From the NCBI GenBank assembly GCA_964016885.1, contig OZ024740.1:111538001-111602000 (forward strand): a DNA stretch of 64,000 nt. The letters run 5' to 3'. Origin of the DNA: Eledone cirrhosa (taxonomy: Eukaryota). The notes under the pieces were generated by a model. That model worked only from the letters and a program-made list of their open reading frames with translations, was not told the origin of the DNA and ran no database searches. The translations under genes were made by a program, and so were the position numbers. Of this stretch, positions 12,961-63,112 are shown piece by piece. Each line of letters begins with the position of its first letter. The stretch's first letter is position 1.

Positions 12961-13294
12961 GAAGTAAGTTACCGGCAAAAAAAAAAAATACATGCGCAGA
13001 CATTGAACTCTAAAAGGAATTCAGGCCACGTGCTAGAACTCAATTGGAACTTGAAAAAATATCTATGTGTGTACAACGTTTGATAACACAGATATTTTCT
13101 CGCGCAAAATAACAGAATGAGATACAAGAAAACAATCAATATTCATATATAAAAAAATATTCATATATGAAAAAAATAAACAAAGAAAGTCTAACCTTAT
13201 ACCGGGAATTTCATATCTGTTGCACCAAGAGTAAATAAATAAACCGGAGGTCACAGATCTTATAGGATTATTCCTTATAGCCAAACTCACCGAT

Positions 13295-14443
13295 ATGTTT
13301 CCTGCTTTCGGGGGTGGATTGTATCGTGATGATGGGCTCCTTACCCTTAAAGGGTACAACCCCAGTAGTACAGATCGGGTCCGTAAACAATTAATCAGCT
13401 TCTTCCGCGACTGGGGATTTAAAATAACCCTACAAACGTCCCTGACCCGTGTTAATTTCCTGGACGTTACCCTCGATCTCAATAATGACCTGTACTACCC
13501 ATACAGGAAACCCAATGACAACCTGCACTACATCCACCGCCGATCTAACCTTCCTAGGAACATCACCAACAACCGGGTCAAAAACATCTCCCTCCGCATA
13601 TCCCGTTTGTCAGCTAATGAGAAGATATTCGATGAACATGCGCCTTACTACAACCAGGCCCTCAAGCGGAGTGGTTTCCGGGAGGAAATATCCTACTGTC
13701 CAGCTCCCATTAGCGGAACCAGCAGGCGACACCGCCGCTCACGCAATGTAACATGGTTCAATCCTCCCCACAACGCCGAGGTGACAACTCCCATCGGGAA
13801 AATTTTCTTTAGGCTCATTGAAAAACACTTCCCACCACAACACCGCTACCACAACATAATTAACAAAAATACCACCAAACTCTCTTACAGCACTACACCT
13901 AACTTCGCACAAAACATCGTCTCCTCCAACAACAAAAAACCCAACCTCGATGGAAGAAACAACCTAAATAGCAGTGGAGAGCCGACCAGGAGGTGCAACT
14001 GTCCTGATAGATCCAGTTGCCCCCTCGACAACAGATGCAGAGACCGTAATGTGATCTACCAGTGCAACGTGAGCACGGACACCTCCAAAAAAGCTTATAT
14101 AGGATTAACCGCATGTGACTTCAAGACCCGGCTATACCAATACAGAGATACCTTCCGAAACCCGGCTCGGCGTCACGCCACTACACTTTCGCGCCACATA
14201 TGGGACCTCAAGGACAACAACATCAACTATGATCTCACTTGGAAATTACTGTCCAGAGCCAACTCTTACACGGGAGGACGCCGTCCGTGCAATTTATGCT
14301 CGGAGGAAACTTTACAAATGCTGTTTTCAACGGACCAACTCCTAAACAAGAAAGATGAACTGGTTACTGCATGTAAACACCAATTACGTAAGACTTACCT
14401 CGCCTTCAAACCCCATAATGACCCGGGGGGGGGGGGGGGGTAG
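13295..14443 (+). CDS. Truncated PLE reverse transcriptase/GIY-YIG endonuclease
   Basis: 382-aa open frame with RT motifs C-E and GIY-YIG. RT motif A and the N-terminus are missing. Confidence 0.85.
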   Translation: MFPAFGGGLYRDDGLLTLKGYNPSSTDRVRKQLISFFRDWGFKITLQTSLTRVNFLDVTLDLNNDLYYPYRKPNDNLHYIHRRSNLPRNITNNRVKNISLRISRLSANEKIFDEHAPYYNQALKRSGFREEISYCPAPISGTSRRHRRSRNVTWFNPPHNAEVTTPIGKIFFRLIEKHFPPQHRYHNIINKNTTKLSYSTTPNFAQNIVSSNNKKPNLDGRNNLNSSGEPTRRCNCPDRSSCPLDNRCRDRNVIYQCNVSTDTSKKAYIGLTACDFKTRLYQYRDTFRNPARRHATTLSRHIWDLKDNNINYDLTWKLLSRANSYTGGRRPCNLCSEETLQMLFSTDQLLNKKDELVTACKHQLRKTYLAFKPHNDPGGGGG

Positions 14444-15643
14444 ACTAGGGCTATAACACCCCACTTGCCTATTTTGTAATGGGTAACCCCTGCTTGCCAA
14501 TGGAGACGTAAGATCTTCTTTTACATTCTTTTATCGCTTCCTCTATATTTCCTCCTTCCCCCCATCCCCCCTAGTCCTTCTACCCCAGTTCCTTTTCTTT
14601 GTCGTCGTCTTTTTCTCGCCCACCCGAGGTAGCCCCTCGGTCCCTTGTAGCTGCAGCACCCCCACCCCTCTCCCCTATTCTATGATAGATTTGGCTGACT
14701 CCGCTCTTTATAGCAGAGGTGTTAGACTTCGAATACTTGCCACCTTCTCCGACCGCTGTCCCTTTTTTCCGTGCCTTCTATATTTCTTAGTGGCATCTTT
14801 GCTTTAATTTCTCGTTTATCCAGTATTTCTTTCTTCTTTTTCCCTTTTTTGGGGGGGTAGGGGTGGGGGGGGGGGGGGGGGGGGGTTCTGTATTAATTTT
14901 CCGTTCTTTACTTTTACTTCGTACGATCTTTCATGTAGCTTGTATAAGACTTTTTGTTTCGTGGCGGTACCCTTAGAGTTAGCACTAGTATTTTTTTGCG
15001 GGACCCCGAATTATATTCTCGTACTAGTTTATTTTCTTGCATTGGGTGGTTGCTGGCCCTGTGATTGGGGTAGAAACCTTTATTATTTCGTGGTAGTCTC
15101 TTTAGTATTTTGCCCCTCCCCCCTCTTTGTTGACCCGTCACCGTACGATACACGCACTTATACCTCGTATAAGGGTCCCTTTATTTCCGTCTCACCTAGT
15201 TTATTTTTATTATTATTATTTATTTTTTTATTCTTCATTATATATATATATATTTTTTTTTAAATTCATTTATCTATTCTTTTATTCACTTATTTGCTTA
15301 TTTATTTATTTATGTATTTCTTTAGCCTAGCAATAGCGAGAAACTTAAGTCTTAGTAACCAGACTTTGCTTTTTATTTTTCTCTCTCAGTACTTTTTATT
15401 ATTTTACCCTTCATTGTTCTGCTTACCGTTTCGTCTTCCTCCCCCTCCCCCTCCCCAGTATCCTCTTTGACCTCACGCCCAGCTGTAGCCGGCACTACCA
15501 ACGGATGAATGGGTCTACTCCAACCCCTCTCCCTACCGGCAGGTTTAGCTACCTCTTCCCCCACCAATTTGCCATCACAGATTTACTACTAACTTGTGAT
15601 GTGACCAATCCTGGTGATTATCTCTTTGACCATATATGGAATT

Positions 15644-15737
15644 ACCCCTTGATAAGCTCGGCTATTTAAATACCAGAATAAATTTTCATTCAGTCCAGAA
15701 TTAGCCGTCGAAACGGCTTGAGCTCAGCCGTCGGGGT
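15644..15737 (+). ncRNA. Type I hammerhead with U3-A8 core (TTGATAA)
   Basis: acccc-TTGATAA-gctCGGCTA..TAGCCGtc-GAAA-CGGCT tgagctc AGCCG-TC-ggggt. Confidence 0.8.
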
Positions 15738-15750
15738 CTTACTTGTTCCT

Positions 15751-15841
15751 ATGATAGCGTACCAAAATTTTTGGTACCCTTGAAATATATATAATTGAAT
15801 AAATATGGTTTTATATATATAGTTTCCATTTATTTAATATC

Positions 15842-15888
<47 letters not shown>

Positions 15889-16200
15889 ATATTAAATAAA
15901 TGGAAACTATATATATAAAACCATATTTATTCAATTATATATATTTCAAGGGTACCAAAAATTTTGGTACGCTATCATCAGATAAAATACAAAATGTTTT
16001 ATAAATATTTGACATGACCAAGGATTATATACGTTAACGGTTCAAGTTATCCCTTTAATATCAATTAAATACTTACTCCAGAAATCTGTCGAGTGCTTGG
16101 AATCAGTTGAAACCATCTATATTTGTTGGATTTCCAACAAATTAAATATCTCTTATACATATATATATATATATATAAAAAAAGAGAAATAGGATTTTGC
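15751..16200. repeat. Fold-back copy of the 61.6-63.1 kb HHR family around (TA)n
   Basis: 15751-15843 is inverted at 15886-15981. The minus arm has CTGATGA-tagcgtaccaa..ttggtaccctt-GAAA-tatata-TA. Confidence 0.75.
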
Positions 16201-16898: not shown

Positions 16899-18500
16899 TA
16901 TTGCCAATAAGAAACACACGCACCAGTTGCTTCACTTCAATTTATTATAAATTAAATTTATAAATTTATAAAATTCCGGTTGGTTGGTTGGTTAATTGGT
17001 TCCACAACCAGATGATTGTTCATATATTGTCAAAGTTCTTTCGTCACACATTCTGTAACCTCTTCAGTGACTGGGCATTCTTTTCTTTGTTTGTGTGCCC
17101 CTCCTTTGTTCTGTCCTACGCCATCTTGTTTTTGTGTGTGTGTTGTGTGCTTAGTGTGCGCATGTCTTACATCCGGGTGTCTGTGTGTGTTTATATTTGT
17201 TTATTTATTTGTTTATTTACATGTTACTGGTTGGTTGTTTGTTCTATGTGTGTGTGCGTTTTCATTTTGTCCTTAATTGTAAGTTGTGATGTTGCTGTTC
17301 CATTCATGTTCTCTATTTAATTTTGGTTGGAGTTCATTTATGTTTATTGCCTCTATGATTTGTCTAAACATTGGGTCTTTTCTTTGTGTAGATTCTATTT
17401 TTATTTCTATGTTCTCTAATTTACCCTTATGTTCTATTTTAGCATGTTGGTGGAGTACAGATGATTCTTTACTATCTTGAAGCTCTCGCCAGTGTTCATT
17501 TATCCGTTCCCATATACTACTACGATCTGTCTCACCTATGTATACTATATTCTTATCTCTACATTGTCATTTAGTACATCTGATGCTATATACTACATTT
17601 CCAGTTTTACAGTTAATATGGGGGCTTAATTTACAGATTATACATTTCTTATCTCTACAGGGAGGTCTTTGAAAAAGGTATGTATTGCTAATAAGTGTTT
17701 TTATGGAGGTACCTGGTCTTTCTACTATCTTAATATTGAGTTTATGTTTATCTAGGGCCCTTCTAAATTTGTAAGCTAATTCACCTCTAGGGGTTGTATC
17801 GATGAACATTACACTCTGGTATTTATTGCTATCATGCCATGAGTTTATTCTATTAAACTTATTCCTAGTTCTTTCTATTCTATTCCAAAATTTGCTCCTA
17901 TACAAGGGGCAGGTCCCATTTGTATCATTATTTCCCATGTTTTCCCATTTGGTTCTGGCTCCTCTATATACTCTGATTTTATCTCTCTGATTGTAACCAG
18001 AGAACTGCATACGGTGGATGAAGTGTTGTATGTGTCTCTCTAGTTCTTTGGGTTGCATATGTGGGACACGTTTCTCATCACCCGTACCAAATCCGCAATC
18101 AGTATGTTGATTTTGGTATGGTCCGAAACAGCTGAGTTTCGGTGGATCAGATATTTGGAAGTCATAGGGTTGGCATAATGGGAATGGAGGATCTGTTTTT
18201 TTTTGTTTTTAATGGTATCTAACCAGAGCTCTGTGTCTAGTACAAGTAATCGGTGGTTGGGGTATTTGCTCACACAAAAACTAGATGGCGTAGGACAGAA
18301 CAAAGGAGAGGCAGAAAAACAAAGAAAAGAATCCCCCGTCACTAAATAGGTCACAGAATGTGTGACGAAAGAACTTTGACAATATATGAACAATCATCTG
18401 GTTGTGGAACCAACCAACCAACTGGAAATTTATAAATTCCTAAATTTAAAAATTTAATTTATAATAAATTGAAGTGAAAGTAACTGGTGCGTGTGTTTCT
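16899..18500 (-). mobile_element. Truncated Penelope-like element family B with inverted pLTR (18270-18500)
   Basis: ORFs 18040-18393 and 17567-18058 (RMQFSGY, CPLYRSK, IVERPGTSIK, NVVYSIRC) are homologous to family A. 18270-18500 is an inverted copy of 16910-17135. Confidence 0.88.
17029..17071 (-). ncRNA. Minimal hammerhead in family B pLTR (also 60033-60075 -; decayed copy near 18338-18380 +)
   Basis: gtca-CTGAAGA-g-GT(T/C)ACA gaatg TGTGAC-GAAA-gaac-TT-tgac. Confidence 0.75.
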
Positions 18501-18501
18501 G

Positions 18502-19225
18502 CAGCCCAGATGCTGAATTCGAGCCCCAGGCTCTTTCTCTAGTCAGCCATTTCATCCGGAGAGGTTACCCCACTCCCTCGTCCACACCATCCTCACTCGC
18601 GCCCGTGCTGTCCACCGCTCCACCGCCCTCACCCCACGCCCCCGCACCCCTAGCCACCGTCTCCCCTTCCCTCTCACCTACCGCCACTCCACCCTACCCC
18701 TCTCCTCCACCGCACCATCCCCGCTTCTTCCGACGCCTCCAGTTCGACCCCTCGACCTCAACCATCGTCCCATCCACCCCTCCTTCAAACGCGCGTGTCA
18801 TCTCCGCTCCCTCCTCGTCCGCAGCTCCCTACACCCGAAACCACGTTCTCCCCCCCCCCCCCCCCCGGTTTCCTTCCCTGCTCCAGGCATCGCCGTACAC
18901 CTGCCACCACATCACCAACATCACCACCTTCCAAGGTCCCAACAGCCACTCCGCCTTCCGCTGCACCTCCTCCAACCCCGTCTATGGACTTCGCTGCACG
19001 AGGTGCAGCGCAACCTATGTCGGACAGACTAGAAGTCACCTGGTGGATCGGTTCACGGAGCACCTCCGGGATATTCGTATCGGCGGGAGTTGCCTCATCG
19101 ACCGCCACTTTGGCTCCCCTGGACATTCCGCCCACCACCTCACGGTTGTGGCCTGATTCAATGTCATGGGACACCCGCCACCCGCCTCACAGTCGAGCAA
19201 CACACCATCTTCACCCATACTTTCC
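18502..19225 (+). mobile_element. GC-rich decayed PLE fragment (thumb/GIY-YIG region)
   Basis: FIRRGYP, FRCTSSNPVYGLRCTRCSATYVGQTRSHLVDRFTEHLRDI. Confidence 0.8.
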
Positions 19226-20333: not shown

Positions 20334-20846
20334 AGTATTAAAATATAAGTATTAATAAAATAGATGTTCTTTTGATCAATTACATTTTATTATACATATT
20401 TCGGATGTACAACAGTACGTCCTCATCAGACAAAATATAATGATACATGACATAACCTGAGATGTTAAATGGTTAAGATTTAATCAAGCTAGTACTACCT
20501 TGATTAAATCTTAACCATTTAACATCTCAGGTTATGTCATGTATCATTATATTTAGTCTGAATTGGCAGTACCGGTAGAGGGTTGGACGCCATGCTTTCT
20601 AGCATAGTTACGTTCCTTTACAGTCTGAGTTCAAATCCCGCCGAGATTAGCTTAGCCTTTGATCCTCACGGGGTCGATAAAATAAAGTACCAGTAATGTA
20701 CTGGGTATTTGCTGGCCTTATGCCTAAAGTAGAAACAATTATATTTTGTCTGATGAGGACGTACTGTTGTACATCCGAAATATGTATAATAAAATGTAAT
20801 TGTTCAAAAGAACATCTATTTTATTAATACTTATATTTTAATATTA
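20333..20846. repeat. Fold-back element with an HHR in each arm, right arm interrupted by a SINE
   Basis: 20333-20488 versus 20499-20561 plus 20738-20846. HHR CTGATGA-GGACGTAC tgtt GTACATCC-GAAA-tatg-TA at 20750-20786. Confidence 0.8.
20562..20740 (+). mobile_element. tRNA-derived SINE family 1 (other copies 33960-34068 +, 34483-34612 +, 36331-36510 -, 37815-38005 -, 38010-38193 -, 45633-45791 fold-back, 46865-47005 -, 62174-62357 -)
   Basis: A-box-like TGGCAGTACCGG, B-box GAGTTCAAATCC, conserved GCCTTTCATCCTTACGGGGTCGATAAAATAAAGTACCAG core, tail AGTAGAAACAATT, about 15-bp target duplication. Confidence 0.85.
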
Positions 20847-24479: not shown

Positions 24480-26850
24480 AATATAAATTAGCGAGAATCG
24501 TATTACGGCTTAGGACTTAACGAAAAACAACTTCCGAGATGTGTGGCAAGCGGTCAATGATTCACATGAACCAGAGCTACAACATACGTTAAAGGCCAAA
24601 TGCACTGAGACGATGGTTAAACAATCATCCGCACAGCCATAAAAACGACCAAGTAATTCGGGTCAAACAAATAAAAATATATGTGATTGAAAATTTACCC
24701 GGACCCCTGAATGGTTGGTAAAATCCAGCATTTGGGTTTCTGCGACTCGACAAATCAAGTACTGTCCGCTTACACAAATGTTAGGCTTCTGGTAAGATGA
24801 TTGAACAAGGAAGCCACTTTTTCAACAGGTTTTAGTTCGAGTGCTAATTTAAGGAATGACCGTTACCGACCCCACGTGGGGGCTCGGCAAGGCAGGCAAC
24901 TCTTATTTTAGACGGATGAAATTCAGTATGTGTATATTATTGCAAGAATGCAAAACATCACAAAACGAATTAAGCTCTCATATATATGTGTGTGTATATA
25001 TACATATATATATATATACACACATATATATATACATACATATATATACATGACCCTCCCAAAGCATAACAATATATATGTGTATATATATGTGTATATA
25101 TATGTGTTTATATATGTGTATATATATGTATATATATATATATAGTATTAGTTAGTATTAGTTATACTATTTATGGTTATGTAAACACAAAACCTTAAGC
25201 AGTTGTAAGTATTTTACACACACCCTAAATAGTGGTAGGCAGTAATGTATTACTACCTTATTACCAGTAAGTTAAGTAGCTCAATGTAAAAACATCAGAT
25301 GATTTACAGAGCAGTTATATGAAATATAAGAATCAAAGAACTGTTCAAAACATTATTGTGCTTACAGCTGTTTCCTCCAAACCGAGGTTTGGATTCTTCG
25401 GAGCAATTTATTAATGCATGGACAGTTATATGACCTCCTTTTCAGCCGAGAGACATACCAATACATATTCAAACATTGATACATATTCAAACATTGTGGG
25501 TCAACATTCATTACAGAATTTAGAGTGGCAGTACACACTTCGAGATTACATTTATATTAATAGGTACAATCAAAAATCAAAGATATAGGTTAAAGTACAA
25601 CATGAAGATAAGTGGTTATATAGTGCAAATGTTATATGTGTGGCACGCATGTGCGTCTTGTTTATATAGTGTGGCAGAGAGATATGTGTGGTAGAGGCAC
25701 TTAGGTAGGTAAATAAGAGTGTTAGGTTGGTAGATCTGGTGGCAAAGTCTTTATATGATTGATATAGTCTGTGTGTGGAGAAATATTATAAGCATTAAAG
25801 ATAGTGCAAGCATTAAAAGTGTTATAAGTATTGGAGATGCACAGCGCAGGGATGTCAAGTAATTCGTGTACTTCGGCATTTTCATGGTCAAGGGAGTGTA
25901 TATTTCGATTATATGCCTTTCACATAATCCACGACAATCCAGTTAGAGATCGTAGTCTGGTGTTCTTTAGTTCGATACAGGAGGTTGTTACGTTTCGAGA
26001 AACGCCATTGAATACCGGAAGTGTGTGTGTGTGGCTAAGGGGAGTTAATGCATGCGGGGAGGTAACTCTGGGGTTTCTATATCTAGCCATTAAAATGTGT
26101 CCCAATATAGACCCTAAATTCTATGGTGAGGTGCACCTTCCAAGAGAGACTTTTAAAGCATAAAGTGTACTAACTATAGAGTAGTTTAACTAAATTATGC
26201 TGAAGGTGATCATATTATTATTAAGGTGGATTAACCCATCTTAAGGTGCTACAAATGGAAATTATAGATGATGAGCGAGGATTCTAAATTAATGATCTCT
26301 GTGGTTGTAGTCTGCTCATATGACCAGGCGCGGTGATTGCAGGATTGCTTCAGGACCCAATGATCTCTGGTAAGATCTGGGTCATCGCTTGCTACATTGG
26401 ATGTCGAAAGATAATCGTCCCCAGGCAGGCCAAAGGTCAATCCGCAGTCCTCGCGACCCCTCTCTGACCGTCAGATCATCCATATACGTACAACCCGCAC
26501 GGCAGTTGCATTGCATTCACTCACTGCGCTCAGCAGCCCGGTCCTACTGGTCAACAGCGCTACTCGATTAAATCATTTTACATCTGTCTAAGGAAGGTGT
26601 TTCCTCTGCCCAACACCATCCAACCGATCAATTCATGCTCAAATTACCCTTAGAGCGGTGTAGTGCCGTCCAAGTGGGTGGATGTTGTCACACCTGCCGT
26701 AGAGGTATAAATGGGTATTTTCCCTGCGAAGGGTTCCAGAGGGATGTCGTTGTTTGTGTTATAATGGATCAGCTAGTGTTGGGTATGTAGTATAGGGTGT
26801 GTCTCTGGTGTTTGATGCTAGATGTGGTGTTAGGTTCCAGTCCGACATTG

Positions 26851-29310
26851 CTATATATAGGGCTTAAAGTTTTGGAAGGAATGTCTGAGGCGGTGCTGGC
26901 AAGTTGCAAACACCTCAGATTTTTTGTTAAGTAGGTTACGGTTGGAGAAGATAATATTGTGTGTCTCTAGTATACAGAGGTTACAGAATTTATTAGGTGG
27001 TTTGTACGAGGTCGCGCTGCCTATTACTTCCCATTTGAGTGTGTATGGTTTATTTTTAGATTTTAGATAGTGTATGTAGCTAGAAAGTGAGGTGGAGTTG
27101 GCTAGGCTGTGCTTTTTGAACGAGTGGATGTGCGAGTTATATCTGATTTTGAAGCAGTTAGAAGTGGAGCCTACATAGGTTTCTGAAGAGTTATTAGTCG
27201 TGACTGTGCATGAGTATATGACATCCTTGGTTAGGCATTTTTTATCTAAAGGGCAGGTTCTATTAGCTCTACAGTTACAATTATTCTGTGCGTTAGTCCG
27301 CTGGTTATAATGCAATGCGGAAGTCTGTGTGGTGGATATAGGATTTTGGGTGTTCGGGTTGGCAACCCTGGTGTTATTACTTATACTAGTGTTATTTCTA
27401 TTGTTACTGCCGTTGCTATTGTTGCTTGCTACAGTGGTATTTAGAGGGTTTGCATCCCGTTGTGATTTTGTTTGTTGGAAGTAAGAACTAATTTTACTAT
27501 TATTGCTGCTAGCTATGTGGTATGCTAAGTTAGGCGTCGTAGAGTATGAGATTTTAATGGTGTTTTTGTTTAAGAGGTTGTGGTACTTGTGTCCTAGAGG
27601 GAAGTTTTTATCTAGTAGTGAGAAGAAAGCCCTAGGTATGTTGGTGGAGACATTTAGGTTGAAAGGAGGGTTGAAAAATGTATTATTTCTTCTTCTATTT
27701 TTGCTTTTAGTGTTTGGTGTGTTGCTTCCTCCTAAGGCCTCACAGTAGTTTCCATGGTAATGGTTACTTCCTGTGGCACCCTCCGCTTTGGTGTACTTGT
27801 GGTTGCTATTCCTATTATTAGATTTCCTCATGGACATGTTGTGCGAGATTATGTTGTAGCTATGTGTTTTCTTAGGTAGGAACTCAATTTCTATATTATG
27901 GCCGGAGCTAGCTAATGCTTGATTGTAATATTGTGAGTTTTTGCTAAATATGTTTGCGTCATAGGACAGACTAGAGATTCTATTGGACACCCCCTTAGAG
28001 ATAGAGTTTAATATTGATCTAGGGTGATTAGACTTGGTATCTACGTAAATAAGTTTCTCATTAGGCTTATGGAAAGGTGTATATATTTTTGAGTCTAGGT
28101 ATAGTGTGGCGTCTAGGAAGTTAACATTTTTAGTGTTTTTGTCCATGGTGATACTAAGGTTAAAGTTTTTGAATGTCTTATGCAGTTGTTTTCTAGTTCT
28201 TTCTATATTAAATTTTTTATATTCTATGAGTAGAAGTGCATCATCGCGGTACAAACCACCGTTGAGGTAAGGGAGGTCTTTATGGATTTCATTGAGGAGG
28301 TATAGGCCGACCAAATCAGTGACCTGCGCCGAGTCACTAGATCCCATGGTTATGTCGAAGTTGTTGTGCGTATCCTTGCGTGTCCATAGTTGGTCCTCGA
28401 AGGTGATTATGGTTTTACGGGCCGCAAGGATGACATCAACCTGGGCTCTAGTCAGGTCGCTATTGGTCATGGCCATGATAAGTGCCTTATTTAATAGGAT
28501 AGGGGAAATAGAGGTGTAGTATGAATTGATATCAAATTGAATAAATTTTTTGTTCTTATTATTCTTGATATCCTTAAACCATTCAATTACTTCACCCGTA
28601 TTTCCCCATTGTTTAAGGTGTATCTTGTGTTTAATTTGTGGGATGATTTTATCCAAAATCTTCTTGCTGATAATACCAATGTCGGACTTGGAAGGGCAGA
28701 TAAGTCTTATCGTGGGGTTGCTGATGAAGTTCTCCTTATGGTCCTTCAGAGAGAATCTAGGGGGGTTCGGAGTGAAAGGTTGTGTATGCCTCTGTAGTCC
28801 TAGTTTAGACACTATATTATAACCCTCTACATTAATATCTTCTAAGTTTTTCAAGGTGGTTTTTTTGTAGCTTTTATGTAGTTCATTATATATAAACTTT
28901 CTATAAGTAATATAATCTAGGCTGTATATGTTATTAGTTTTATCTGCGTGTACAATAATTTTATTACTAGTTTTGAATCCACTAATAGAAGTGTTAAGTT
29001 TGTTTAAGAAGGTGTTGCTTCTAATATGGTGCTTATTGTATTTAATGTTCTTAACTAGTTTAACTAGGTCATTTTCAAAGGAGTTAAGTAGAGTGTTATG
29101 AGGGGGGCTTTTAAAGGTTTTAAAGCCGAAGGAGTCAAAATTGTTAGTATTATTCAAGTTGTTAGATTTGTTTCTATCATAATGGAATGTCCTCCATCTC
29201 ACTCTATTGATAAATGAATTTACACTGTTGATCAGCAATTTCTCATATGTATTCCTGGATGGTATTGGTATGTTCTTGGTTGACATGGGGAGTTGGTCTT
29301 TGATTAGCAT
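26851..29310 (-). CDS. PLE polyprotein: reverse transcriptase + C-terminal GIY-YIG endonuclease (819 aa; probably Hydra-clade-like)
   Basis: KNIPIPS..FINRVRWR N-terminus, FIQFDINSYYTSI, ITMGSSDSAQVTDLVG, GGLYRDD, VNFLD, CNC..CPLDKKC..VIY..YVGST..FKIRY.SH..CNLCILE..LLNKK. The clade call is inference. Confidence 0.95.
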   Translation of the reverse strand: MLIKDQLPMSTKNIPIPSRNTYEKLLINSVNSFINRVRWRTFHYDRNKSNNLNNTNNFDSFGFKTFKSPPHNTLLNSFENDLVKLVKNIKYNKHHIRSNTFLNKLNTSISGFKTSNKIIVHADKTNNIYSLDYITYRKFIYNELHKSYKKTTLKNLEDINVEGYNIVSKLGLQRHTQPFTPNPPRFSLKDHKENFISNPTIRLICPSKSDIGIISKKILDKIIPQIKHKIHLKQWGNTGEVIEWFKDIKNNKNKKFIQFDINSYYTSISPILLNKALIMAMTNSDLTRAQVDVILAARKTIITFEDQLWTRKDTHNNFDITMGSSDSAQVTDLVGLYLLNEIHKDLPYLNGGLYRDDALLLIEYKKFNIERTRKQLHKTFKNFNLSITMDKNTKNVNFLDATLYLDSKIYTPFHKPNEKLIYVDTKSNHPRSILNSISKGVSNRISSLSYDANIFSKNSQYYNQALASSGHNIEIEFLPKKTHSYNIISHNMSMRKSNNRNSNHKYTKAEGATGSNHYHGNYCEALGGSNTPNTKSKNRRRNNTFFNPPFNLNVSTNIPRAFFSLLDKNFPLGHKYHNLLNKNTIKISYSTTPNLAYHIASSNNSKISSYFQQTKSQRDANPLNTTVASNNSNGSNNRNNTSISNNTRVANPNTQNPISTTQTSALHYNQRTNAQNNCNCRANRTCPLDKKCLTKDVIYSCTVTTNNSSETYVGSTSNCFKIRYNSHIHSFKKHSLANSTSLSSYIHYLKSKNKPYTLKWEVIGSATSYKPPNKFCNLCILETHNIIFSNRNLLNKKSEVFATCQHRLRHSFQNFKPYI

Positions 29311-31236
29311 ATTGGCAATATTATATGTCAGCTCAACGATATGGAGCAGTTAATAGTATTAGTTATACTATTTATGGTTATGTAAACACAAAACCTTAAG
29401 CAGTTGTAAGTATTTTACACACACCCTAAATAGTGGTAGGCAGTAATGTATTACTACCTTATTACCAGTAAGTTAAGTAGCTCAATGTAAAAACATCAGA
29501 TGATTTACAGAGCAGTTATATGAAATATAAGAATCAAAGAACTGTTCAAAACATTATTGTGCTTACAGCTGTTTCCTCCAAACCGAGGTTTGGATTCTTC
29601 GGAGCAATTTATTAATGCATGGCAGCGCGACCTCGTACAAACCACCTAATAAATTCTGTAACCTCTGTATACTAGAGACACACAATATTATCTTCTCCAA
29701 CCGTAACCTACTTAACAAAAAATCTGAGGTGTTTGCAACTTGCCAGCACCGCCTCAGACATTCCTTCCAAAACTTTAAGCCCTATATATAGCAATGTCGG
29801 ACTGGAACCTAACACCACATCTAGCATCAAACACCAGAGACACACCCTATACTACATACCCAACACTAGCTGATCCATTATAACACAAACAACGACATCC
29901 CTCTGGAACCCTTCGCAGGGAAAATACCCATTTATACCTCTACGGCAGGTGTGACAACATCCACCCACTTGGACGGCACTACACCGCTCTAAGGGTAATT
30001 TGAGCATGAATTGATCGGTTGGATGGTGTTGGGCAGAGGAAACACCTTCCTTAGACAGATGTAAAATGATTTAATCGAGTAGCGCTGTTGACCAGTAGGA
30101 CCGGGCTGCTGAGCGCAGTGAGTGAATGCAATGCAACTGCCGTGCGGGTTGTACGTATATGGATGATCTGACGGTCAGAGAGGGGTCGCGAGGACTGCGG
30201 ATTGACCTTTGGCCTGCCTGGGGACGATTATCTTTCGACATCCAATGTAGCAAGCGATGACCCAGATCTTACCAGAGATCATTGGGTCCTGAAGCAATCC
30301 TGCAATCACCGCGCCTGGTCATATGAGCAGACTACAACCACAGAGATCATTAATTTAGAATCCTCGCTCATCATCTATAATTTCCATTTGTAGCACCTTA
30401 AGATGGGTTAATCCACCTTAATAATAATATGATCACCTTCAGCATAATTTAGTTAAACTACTCTATAGTTAGTACACTTTATGCTTTAAAAGTCTCTCTT
30501 GGAAGGTGCACCTCACCATAGAATTTAGGGTCTATATTGGGACACATTTTAATGGCTAGATATAGAAACCCCAGAGTTACCTCCCCGCATGCATTAACTC
30601 CCCTTAGCCACACACACACACTTCCGGTATTCAATGGCGTTTCTCGAAACGTAACAACCTCCTGTATCGAACTAAAGAACACCAGACTACGATCTCTAAC
30701 TGGATTGTCGTGGATTATGTGAAAGGCATATAATCGAAATATACACTCCCTTGACCATGAAAATGCCGAAGTACACGAATTACTTGACATCCCTGCGCTG
30801 TGCATCTCCAATACTTATAACACTTTTAATGCTTGCACTATCTTTAATGCTTATAATATTTCTCCACACACAGACTATATCAATCATATAAAGACTTTGC
30901 CACCAGATCTACCAACCTAACACTCTTATTTACCTACCTAAGTGCCTCTACCACACATATCTCTCTGCCACACTATATAAACAAGACGCACATGCGTGCC
31001 ACACATATAACATTTGCACTATATAACCACTTATCTTCATGTTGTACTTTAACCTATATCTTTGATTTTTGATTGTACCTATTAATATAAATGTAATCTC
31101 GAAGTGTGTACTGCCACTCTAAATTCTGTAATGAATGTTGACCCACAATGTTTGAATATGTATCAATGTTTGAATATGTATTGGTATGTCTCTCGGCTGA
31201 AAAGGAGGTCATATAACTGTCCATGCATTAATAAAT

Positions 31237-58263: not shown

Positions 58264-59778
<1,515 letters not shown>

Positions 59779-61621: not shown

Positions 61622-63112
61622 GATATGTATTCAATTATATATATTTCAAGGGTACTAAAATTTTGGTACGCTATCATCAGATGAATTATAAAAAGTTTTA
61701 TAAATATTTGACATGACCAAGGATAATATACCTTAACGGTTTAAGTTATCCTTGGAAAGTTATAATATACCTTAACGGTTCAAGTTATCTCTTTCCAGGG
61801 ATAACTTGAACCGTTAAGGTATATTATCCTTGGTCATGTCAAATATTTATAAAACTTCTTGTATTTTATCTGATGATAGCGTACCAAAATTTTGGCACCC
61901 TTGAAATATATATAATAGAATAAACATGGTTTTATAAAGATAGTTTCCATTTAATATCATTGAATATTTACTCCAAAAGTCTGTCGAGTGCTCTGAACGA
62001 GTTATAAATATTTGTTGTATTTCCAACAAATTAAATATCCCCTCTACTTATATATATATATAGAGAGATATGCAGCAGTTATATTTAATTTGTTAGGATT
62101 CCAACAAACTTAAAAGTTTATAACTGATATAGAGCACTCAACAATTTACTGGAGTAAATATTCAATATATTAATAGTTTCTACTTTAGGCACAAGGCCAA
62201 CAATTACCCAGTGCATTACTGGTACTTTATTTTATCGACCCCGTAAGGATGCAAGGCAAAGTCAGCCTCGGTGGGATTTGAACTCAGATCGTAAGGGGAC
62301 GTAACTATGCTGGAAAGCATGGCGTCCGTCCCTCTACCGATACTGCCAATCCACCCCTATTCAATATATTAATAAATGGAAACTATGTTTATAAAACCAT
62401 ATTTATTTTATTATATATATTTCAAGGGCAACCAAGGCAGTCTTGGTGCGCTTTCATCAGATAAAATACAAAATTTGTTTTATAAATAGTGACATAACTG
62501 TCAAGGTTGTTTTCCACGGTTATGTCACTATTTATAAAACAAATTTTGTATTTTATCTGAGGAAAGCGCACCAAGACTGCCTTGGTTGCCCCTGAAATAT
62601 ATATAATAAAATAATTATGGTTTTATAAATATAGTTTCCATTTATTAATATATTGTATATATATATACATCAATTATATTAATAAATGGAAACTATATTT
62701 ATAAAACCATATCTATTCTATTATATATATTTCAAGGGTACCAAAACTTTGGTACGTTCTCATCAGATAATATACAAAGTTTGTTTTATAAATATTGACA
62801 TATCCAGGAAAGAGATCTTAATGGTTCAAGTTTTTCCTGCATAGTTAAACTTAAATAAACTTGAACCGTTAAGATCTCCTTCCTGTATCTGTCAATATTT
62901 ATAAAAGAAACTTTGTATTTTATCTGATGCTGATGAGAGCGTACCAAAGTTCTGGTACCCTTGAAATATATATAATAGAATAAATATGGTTTTATAAATA
63001 TAGTTTCCATTTATTAATATCATTGATATTATACGCCAGAAAGCTGTCGAGTGCTTTGAATCAGTTATAAATATATATATTTGTTGAATTACCAACAAAT
63101 TAAATATCCCTT
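61622..63112. repeat. Cluster of three fold-back units of one short HHR family (six HHR arms), with a SINE insertion
   Basis: For example tttat-CTGATGA-tAGcGTACCAA..TTGGcACcCTt-GAAA-TATATA-TA-ataga at 61865-61919. Hairpin centres near 61790, 62510 and 62845. Confidence 0.8.

What the first reader, a model, noticed from the sequence alone, without database searches (positions are those of the whole stretch)
15644..15737. The same U3-A8 hammerhead variant at the 3' end of a protein-coding PLE
Seen: acccc-TTGATAA...GAAA-CGGCT..AGCCG-TC-ggggt about 1.2 kb downstream of the RT/GIY-YIG ORF 13295-14443, with a long near-palindromic stem III and about 37-nt loop II. The sequence differs from the 58.7-kb HHR, but the variant core and long loop II are shared. 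Inference: this PLE lineage is the candidate autonomous partner or ancestor of the 591-bp mini-element.
Basis: partly seen in the sequence, partly recalled or inferred. Interest (0 to 1): 0.75.

Follow-up and report, generated by a model that had tools for sequence, protein, structure and literature searches.

The report
Retroelement hammerhead copied from inside itself
This is a self-cutting-RNA (hammerhead) motif at the tail of a very abundant jumping gene: its unusual core pair is an already published variant, but the family kept multiplying while that pair was mismatched, and most copies begin at one spot inside the motif rather than at its cutting site, so the element likely copies itself from uncut RNA that probably starts within the ribozyme.

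Summary
The motif is real: a type I hammerhead (U3-A8 core, 54-nt domain II, near-palindromic stem III) in the pseudo-LTR of a Hydra-clade Penelope-like element. The window copy is 5'-truncated; intact 3.5-kb units exist elsewhere. U3-A8 is published, also for PLEs. An ORF tree shows U3-A8, then a long mismatched C3·A8 phase (about 1,000 copies), then U3-A8 again; this scan noted that before on other copies of this family, and I re-derived it. New here: in a sample chosen only by the tail sequence, 54 of 90 arms start 35-47 nt upstream of the cleavage site, inside loop II at an initiator-like motif. None start between -121 and -47, and 4 start at the cut. Most templates were therefore uncut, and probably begin inside the ribozyme. 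The link to the 591-bp element is weaker than proposed. The two share hammerhead type, (TA)n targets and insertion layout, but no alignable sequence, and the mini-element has its own old non-coding lineage. Partner is possible; direct ancestor is not supported. Cleavage and transcription start are untested.

The parts
13245..15752 (+). 5'-truncated copy of a Hydra-clade Penelope-like element ('family A'; full unit 3,531 bp elsewhere in the genome)
   Evidence: blastn to other copies starts at 13245 and stops at 15752; aligned to the intact tandem unit
13295..14443 (+). C-terminal half of the RT/GIY-YIG ORF: YRDD, WFNPP, CxCX5C linker, GIY-YIG-like core, CxxC and CxH
   Evidence: about 94% DNA identity to the intact ORF over the 3' 909 nt
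14444..15643 (+). 3' UTR / pseudo-LTR, pyrimidine-rich; length varies by subfamily (638-1,227 nt from ORF end to hammerhead)
15644..15737 (+). Type I hammerhead motif; predicted cleavage after 15732
15649..15655 (+). Core strand: U3 at 15649, A8 at 15654. Position 7 takes all four bases across subfamilies, position 3 is C in older subfamilies, position 8 stays A
15663..15670 (+). TATA-like octamer in loop II, 29 nt upstream of 15692; degenerate in older subfamilies and absent in sister family A2
   Evidence: read from sequence and alignment; function inferred
15686..15698 (+). Zone where most short genomic copies begin (-47 to -35 from the cut). It holds an initiator-like motif with A at 15688 and 15692, and may also pair with the GGA just 5' of stem I
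   Evidence: inversion joints at the same place in contigs of runs X1 and X4; possible pairing
15714..15730 (+). Near-palindromic stem III; two copies form a duplex of -30.7 kcal/mol. Its arms repeat the stem II arms, which allows an inactive swapped fold
15738..15752 (+). First element end (+20 from the cut), normally joined to (TA)n; the second end lies at +103 (83-nt tail, absent from this copy)
58303..59630 (+). 591-bp non-coding tandem element used for comparison; U3-A8 hammerheads at 58717-58804 and 59308-59395
   Evidence: (5,741 exact matches of a 29-nt pattern)

Best explanation
This is the pseudo-LTR hammerhead motif of an abundant, (TA)n-targeting Hydra-clade Penelope-like retrotransposon that likely copies itself mainly from uncut RNA whose 5' end probably lies inside the ribozyme's long loop II, which would make the ribozyme slow and accessory rather than an obligatory processing step. 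Shown: the motif sits at a fixed place between the 3' UTR and two fixed element ends (+20, +103). Its core is conserved except at positions 3 and 7. The lineage amplified through a C3·A8 phase between two U3-A8 phases. Most copies are short and begin at -47 to -35, not at the cut. Inferred: the GIY-YIG domain nicks (TA)n and the RT starts at the two internal sites, as shown in vitro for an anole PLE. On an RNA that starts at about -45/-41 the RT runs off after 60-150 nt and leaves the small inverted pairs. Long copies pass this point, so they would come from a second template pool: multi-unit read-through RNA, or circles made by occasional cleavage and ligation, perhaps in the stem III dimer. 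The 591-bp element is a separate old non-autonomous lineage that borrows some (TA)n-targeting PLE protein, possibly this one.
For: Linkage in 28 of 30 loci. Hydra motifs in the intact 717-aa ORF. 4,100 U3-A8 copies; 1,501 older-subfamily copies, about 69 of the first 100 C3·A8 and none with G8. Ladder-shaped ORF tree of 28 rows: U3-A8 basal, C3·A8 grade, young U3-A8 clade at 100/100; sister family A2 is U3-A8 in 4 of 4 full motifs. 5' ends of tail-bearing arms: 54 of 90 at -47..-35, 0 at -120..-48, 5 further up, 4 at the cut. Opposite arms: 45 of 58 at -45..-33, 0 between -79 and -45, 2 at the cut. 23,294 tail matches against roughly 5,200 with the 5' core half. Long copies that reach the ORF start mostly run past -47 (14 of 17 rows). 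Literature: hammerhead mutants do not affect insertion in vitro and uncut RNA is the dominant substrate (PMC11167929); single and double mutants of the CUGA region other than C3G/G8C had low activity in one construct (PMC9901934).
Against: No RNA data, so neither the RNA 5' end nor cleavage was observed. The -47..-35 zone also covers a segment that could pair with the GGA before stem I (3 of 5 pairs kept in 14 of 15 rows, no compensatory change), so an RT road-block is not excluded. The TATA-like box is not conserved in old subfamilies or A2, and the known Penelope promoter is TATA-less and internal (PMC2377424). The other core positions stay fixed through all subfamilies, so selection on the core did not lapse, and C3·A8 might still cleave with protein help. 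End positions can overshoot by a few bases at AT-rich junctions. The 90 arms all come from the first 27 Mb of one contig. In one search some stops are alignment breaks or hit the flank limit, and one locus is counted twice. The tree root rests on one ORF fragment linked to A2 only by inverted adjacency; L137 and L149 are one locus.
Confidence: 0.6

Rival explanations
1. Road-block model: the RNA starts upstream of the hammerhead and the -47..-35 boundary is an RT stop at protein-bound or tertiary-folded domain II of the primed hammerhead. The motif acts mainly as the RT-binding fold.
For: The boundary covers the one loop II segment conserved out to A2, which is complementary to the invariant GGA before stem I. 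The anole PLE hammerhead is protein-assisted.
Against: A stop at a helix is expected at its 3' edge, not past it. Both arms end at the same sharp upstream limit. If the block acted at every hammerhead, most full-length copies should stop there too, yet 14 of 17 rows run past (one copy, L035, does start at -45).
Confidence: 0.25
2. Efficient, essential ribozyme: U3-A8 is a compensated active core, cleavage and ligation make circular templates for all copies, and C3·A8 is tolerated in this context.
For: U3-A8 covariants are natural and reported active (PMC3088659). All other core positions are conserved, and U3 was regained. The dimer fold is the hammerhead fold in the model. Tandem arrays of near-identical units exist.
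Against: A circle has no end at -45. Only 4 of 90 and 2 of 58 arms begin at the cut. About 1,000 copies and several successive tree nodes carry the mismatch.
Confidence: 0.12
3. One reading: the 591-bp element descends from this family's pseudo-LTR and is specifically mobilised by it.
For: Same core variant, long domain II, 5-bp stem I, GUC site, (TA)n targets, two fixed ends and inverted arms. Both have very young subfamilies. Families B, C and D have C3-G8 cores with short stem II.
Against: No alignable sequence. No model-score excess. End positions differ (+20/+103 against about +80/+245). Mini arm starts are scattered in a biased sample of 21. None of 30 mini-lineage loci has an ORF linked as in an autonomous element.
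Confidence: 0.3

Closest known systems
Hydra clade of Penelope-like elements (Craig et al. 2021, PMC8557442; passages, section 11, supplementary Files S1-S2 read)
   Same: C-terminal GIY-YIG, RWK-like and DKT motifs, CxCX5C linker, CxxC/CxH, (TA)n targets, inverted 5'-truncated arms, tail, hammerhead in the pseudo-LTR.
   Different: All 26 Hydra hammerhead rows in File S2 have C3-G8 cores and short loops II (3-10 nt). This family has A8, a 37-nt loop II and a 17-nt stem III palindrome; its unit (3.5 kb) and tail (83 nt) are longer than described (<3 kb; 30-40 nt).
U3-A8 minimal hammerheads of Schistosoma mansoni Cercyon PLEs (Cervera and de la Pena 2014, PMC4209133; parts 1-2 of 4 read, supplements not read)
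   Same: U3-A8 core covariation in a PLE pseudo-LTR hammerhead, 4-5-bp stem I, palindromic junction suited to dimers.
   Different: Those are minimal motifs without a real helix III and with a 7-8-bp helix II. No mismatch phase or 5' boundary inside the motif is described in the parts read.
Anole Poseidon element PAc (PMC11167929; passages and second half of main text read)
   Same: Two RT start sites downstream of the hammerhead defining a tail; AT-rich targets; uncut RNA as template.
   Different: PAc has a canonical C3-G8 core and an ORF that starts in stem II; no template end inside the hammerhead is reported in the parts read.
Metazoan non-LTR retrozymes (Li, Clavereau and Pollet 2026, bioRxiv 10.64898/2026.07.22.740005; part 1 of 5 read)
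   Same: Fits the 591-bp element: tandem non-coding units with a type I hammerhead, proposed to derive from PLE pseudo-LTRs.
   Different: Here the retrozyme-like lineage shows no sequence link to the one autonomous family that shares its core variant.

Membership tests
Hydra-clade PLE | Single ORF with RT then C-terminal GIY-YIG endonuclease | tested here: met
   717-aa ORF from the first Met in an intact unit, assigned by motifs; Pfam gave no hit
Hydra-clade PLE | N-terminal RWK motif and DKG modified to DKT | tested here: met
   RWR (conservative variant) and DKT read in the intact ORF (definition)
Hydra-clade PLE | CxCX5C linker, CxxC and CxH around conserved E and N, no CCHH | tested here: met
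   read directly from the translations
Hydra-clade PLE | Insertion into (TA)n with pseudo-LTR, inverted arm and tail | tested here: met
   junction listing; the window copy itself abuts another repeat instead
Hydra-clade PLE | RT phylogeny inside the Hydra clade with published references | not tested
   no tree with the published Hydra proteins was built
Hydra-clade PLE | Canonical hammerhead in the pseudo-LTR (descriptive trait) | tested here: not met
   hammerhead present but A8 with long loop II; families B and C also deviate, at position 4
Type I hammerhead ribozyme | Core CUGANGA / GAAA / UH in a three-way junction | tested here: met
   met with the published U3-A8 covariation; older subfamilies break the 3-8 pair
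Type I hammerhead ribozyme | Helices supported by covariation | tested here: inconclusive
   family A/A2: 87% paired, one clear compensatory pair, not above shuffles (61 of 500); mini lineage: 11 of 18 pairs with two-sided changes, 0 of 500 shuffles
Type I hammerhead ribozyme | Self-cleavage after position 17 | not testable with these tools
   needs an assay; genomic ends show little enrichment at the site
Autonomous partner of the 591-bp element | Shared terminal or pseudo-LTR sequence | tested here: not met
Autonomous partner of the 591-bp element | Shared target and insertion architecture, overlapping activity | tested here: met
   not specific to this family

The most novel reading that the evidence does not exclude
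The long loop II is a promoter: transcription starts inside the hammerhead, so each mRNA begins with half a ribozyme and ends with a whole one. The palindromic stems III join the two ends of the RNA, and rare end-to-end cleavage and ligation make the circles that yield more-than-unit, transcribable copies, while run-off from the capped end litters the genome with about 20,000 short inverted pairs. The U3-A8 to C3·A8 to U3-A8 path is then a dated natural record of a ribozyme core tuned down and back up.
Probability: 0.25. Interest if true: 0.75.

Novelty: new variant of a known kind. Interest (0 to 1): 0.52.

Why it matters
What PLE hammerheads do in vivo is an open question in the papers read: activity is low in vitro and dispensable for insertion in the one reconstituted system. 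This family gives two genomic read-outs that bear on it. A catalytic-core mismatch was carried through successive active subfamilies, and a sharp copy boundary shows that the usual template was uncut and probably starts inside the ribozyme. Intact young copies and natural U3-A8, C3·A8 and rare C3-G8 alleles in one sequence background make cleavage, start-site and trans-mobilisation tests simple. The U3-A8 core by itself is not new.

Tried and rejected
Rfam scan: no hammerhead among the 150 listed of 241 matches. Pfam: no hit on the truncated or intact ORF. A DNA search with the mini-element returned nothing, probably because common words are skipped; a pattern search worked. The pattern was one base short and found 80 indel variants; not used. 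The 3'-UTR tree dropped 66 of 130 rows for low coverage and had no outgroup; the hammerhead-region tree did not converge; only the ORF tree is relied on. RNA: no RNA holder listed, which is no evidence either way; the three runs laid were contigs and show no starts or ends. An RNAalifold-based model held only 5 pairs and was replaced. The sigma-70 promoter scan does not apply to this host. Search for an autonomous element with the mini's pseudo-LTR found none, in a small sample. End surveys of families B, C and D (2, 28 and 17 arms, partly ORF-selected) are too small or biased to serve as controls; A2 (9 arms) has 3 at -42..-40. Whether junction bases carry a cap signature remains open. Lunse et al. 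2017 on PLE hammerhead variants was not held, so prior description of C3·A8 or long-loop forms there cannot be excluded; the Cervera supplements were not read. Literature searches showed no report of a start site inside a PLE hammerhead.

Full report
OBSERVATION. The motif is at 15644-15737 as described: 5-bp stem I, core with U3 (15649) and A8 (15654), a 54-nt domain II with a 37-nt loop, GAAA, a 17-nt near-palindromic stem III and UC, with the predicted cut after 15732. It begins 1,201 nt after the ORF stop. My descriptor scan of both strands of the window gave 8 hammerhead-like hits, three of them U3-A8: this one and the two units of the 591-bp element. A pattern over stem I and the U3-A8 core matches 4,100 times in the genome, with 0 for the reversed control.

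THE ELEMENT. The window copy spans 13245-15752 and lacks its 5' half. Intact copies have a 3,531-bp unit and a 717-aa ORF; one locus holds four in tandem. The protein has RWR, DKT, YRDD, CxCX5C, a C-terminal GIY-YIG-like domain and CxxC/CxH. These are the diagnostic features of the Hydra clade; membership rests on motifs, not on a tree with published references. Copies end in (TA)n at two fixed places, +20 and +103 from the cut, and are often paired with an inverted, truncated arm. The hammerhead follows the ORF on the same strand in 28 of 30 loci chosen by the protein alone, and precedes the next ORF start in tandem units.

THE CORE. U3-A8 is known: in natural hammerheads generally (PMC3088659, section read) and in about 1,300 Schistosoma PLE motifs (PMC4209133). 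It is absent from the 26 Hydra rows in File S2 of PMC8557442. In copies close to the window copy, 92 of 92 cores are U3-A8 and position 7 varies. Older subfamilies give 1,501 matches; of the first 100 listed I count by eye 69 C3·A8, 31 U3-A8 and none with G8. Only 13 copies differ at both positions, and C3-G8 (5) is no commoner than C3-U8 (5). An ORF tree of 28 rows, rooted on a 71%-identical fragment, is a ladder: U3-A8 at the base, then a series of C3·A8 branches, then a U3-A8 clade (100/100) holding the window copy and the youngest subfamily. Sister family A2 is U3-A8. So the pair was broken and later restored while the lineage kept amplifying. Two earlier notes of this scan (e1-10307551, e1-10308940) say the same for other copies; I saw them, and they are not independent support. 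In one mutational scan, every single and double mutant of this region except the C3G/G8C swap had low activity (PMC9901934, passages), so both forms may be slow.

FOLDING. As a monomer, the hammerhead fold (-22.4 kcal/mol) is less stable than a swapped fold (-24.9), because stems II and III share their arm sequences. The modelled probability of stem III is 0.33 here, 0.08 and 0.36 in two C3·A8 copies, 0.75 in the youngest and 0.92 in the oldest copy tested. Two molecules pair through stem III and give the hammerhead arrangement at -63.1 against -49.8 for two monomers. Covariation within A/A2 is weak: one clear compensatory pair, not above shuffles.

WHERE COPIES BEGIN. A 24-nt tail pattern has 23,294 matches, against roughly 5,200 copies that include the 5' half of the core. 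I took the 30 loci returned plus 60 of the other 70 listed places, which gave 90 distinct arms from the first 27 Mb of one contig. Their 5' ends relative to the cut: 5 beyond -120, 0 between -120 and -48, 54 at -47 to -35, 7 at -30 to -24, 15 at -20 to -3, 4 at the cut and 5 further down. The opposite arms agree: 45 of 58 at -45 to -33, none between -79 and -45, and 2 at the cut. Contigs of runs X1 and X4 show inversion joints at the same place, though these may come from the source material. The boundary coincides with an initiator-like motif (A at 15688 and 15692; fly consensus in PMC10290830, passages) 29 nt after a TATA-like octamer. The initiator-like segment is kept out to A2; the TATA-like box is not. 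Long copies that reach the ORF start mostly pass the boundary (14 of 17 rows, some of them alignment breaks or limited by the flank), and one starts at -45.

MECHANISM. The cDNAs of 81 of 90 arms extend at least three bases upstream of the cleavage site, so their templates were uncut there, or re-ligated. This matches the anole PLE, where RT starts at two internal sites, uncut RNA is the main substrate and hammerhead mutants insert normally (PMC11167929). A shared sharp limit on both arms is best read as the template's end, most simply a transcription start inside loop II (about 0.55), or else as an RT stop at folded or protein-bound domain II (about 0.3). In Drosophila Penelope the start lies upstream of an intron that ends at helix I, so this layout would differ. 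Cutting the 3' hammerhead would remove the RT start sites from the ORF-bearing RNA, which would favour a slow ribozyme and explain why a mismatch was tolerated. The otherwise fixed core suggests some remaining use, such as making circles for long copies or serving as the RT-binding fold. These steps are inference.

THE 591-BP ELEMENT. It has 5,741 exact pattern matches, (TA)n targets, tandem and inverted arms and two ends at about +80 and +245. It does not align with family A (best E = 0.05). It belongs to an old non-coding radiation with well-supported helices. A model of that radiation scores family A hammerheads no higher than unrelated canonical ones. Three other Hydra families (4,150 motif matches) have C3-G8 cores and short stems II, so family A is the only sampled autonomous lineage with the same hammerhead type. 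That keeps a deep relationship or a trans partnership open but does not show either; a recent derivation is unlikely.

VERDICT. Observation confirmed; interpretation partly supported. This is a new variant of a known kind. The headline core variant is already in print. The mismatch phase and the copy boundary inside loop II are what make it worth a bench test. Interest 0.52.

Noticed in passing
window 25160-29600 (-): Second Hydra family (B), intact-looking ORF 26857-29301 with 40% identity to family A. Both pseudo-LTR hammerheads read C3-G8 with C at position 4 and a short stem II.
   Followed up: partly
L240:3880-3980, L241:3900-3980: Hydra family C (53% identity to A; the commonest family among the first 100 hits) has a hammerhead-like motif with A at position 4 and a UU cleavage site. 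Three of four Hydra families examined deviate from the core consensus; family D is canonical.
   Followed up: partly
window 15753-15989: A 250-bp palindromic repeat abuts the element's 3' end in place of a (TA)n target. Its minus strand holds a canonical-core hammerhead like those at 62404-62770.
   Followed up: no
window 20379-20804 and 62404-62770: Further canonical C3-G8 hammerheads in inverted pairs, with short AT palindromes as stem III.
   Followed up: no
L259-L288, L189-L193, L204: The 591-bp element belongs to an old radiation of non-coding elements (658 pattern matches against 10 control; candidate tandem periods about 440-620 bp), nearly all U3-A8. They have a covarying extra helix in loop II and a 5' flank complementary to a loop II segment (possible pseudoknot; the loop segment was fixed by my pattern).
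   Followed up: partly
L198-L201: A repeat family with a U3-A8-like core strand and long domain II but no stem I partner right after stem III; possibly a permuted or split hammerhead.
   Followed up: no
L061-L062 (G000:C1:437197000-437216999): Tandem array of four near-identical intact 3,531-bp units with an inverted arm; a likely source of multi-unit RNA.
   Followed up: partly
window 17567-18208 (-) and 18473-19156 (+): Two further retroelement-like ORF fragments, the second with a weak GIY-YIG match; neither is similar to the Hydra proteins.
   Followed up: no
run X5 (organism B): Contigs of a second coded organism cover 23 of 30 bins of the family A unit, some at 99% or more, which suggests a close relative or recent transfer.
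   Followed up: no
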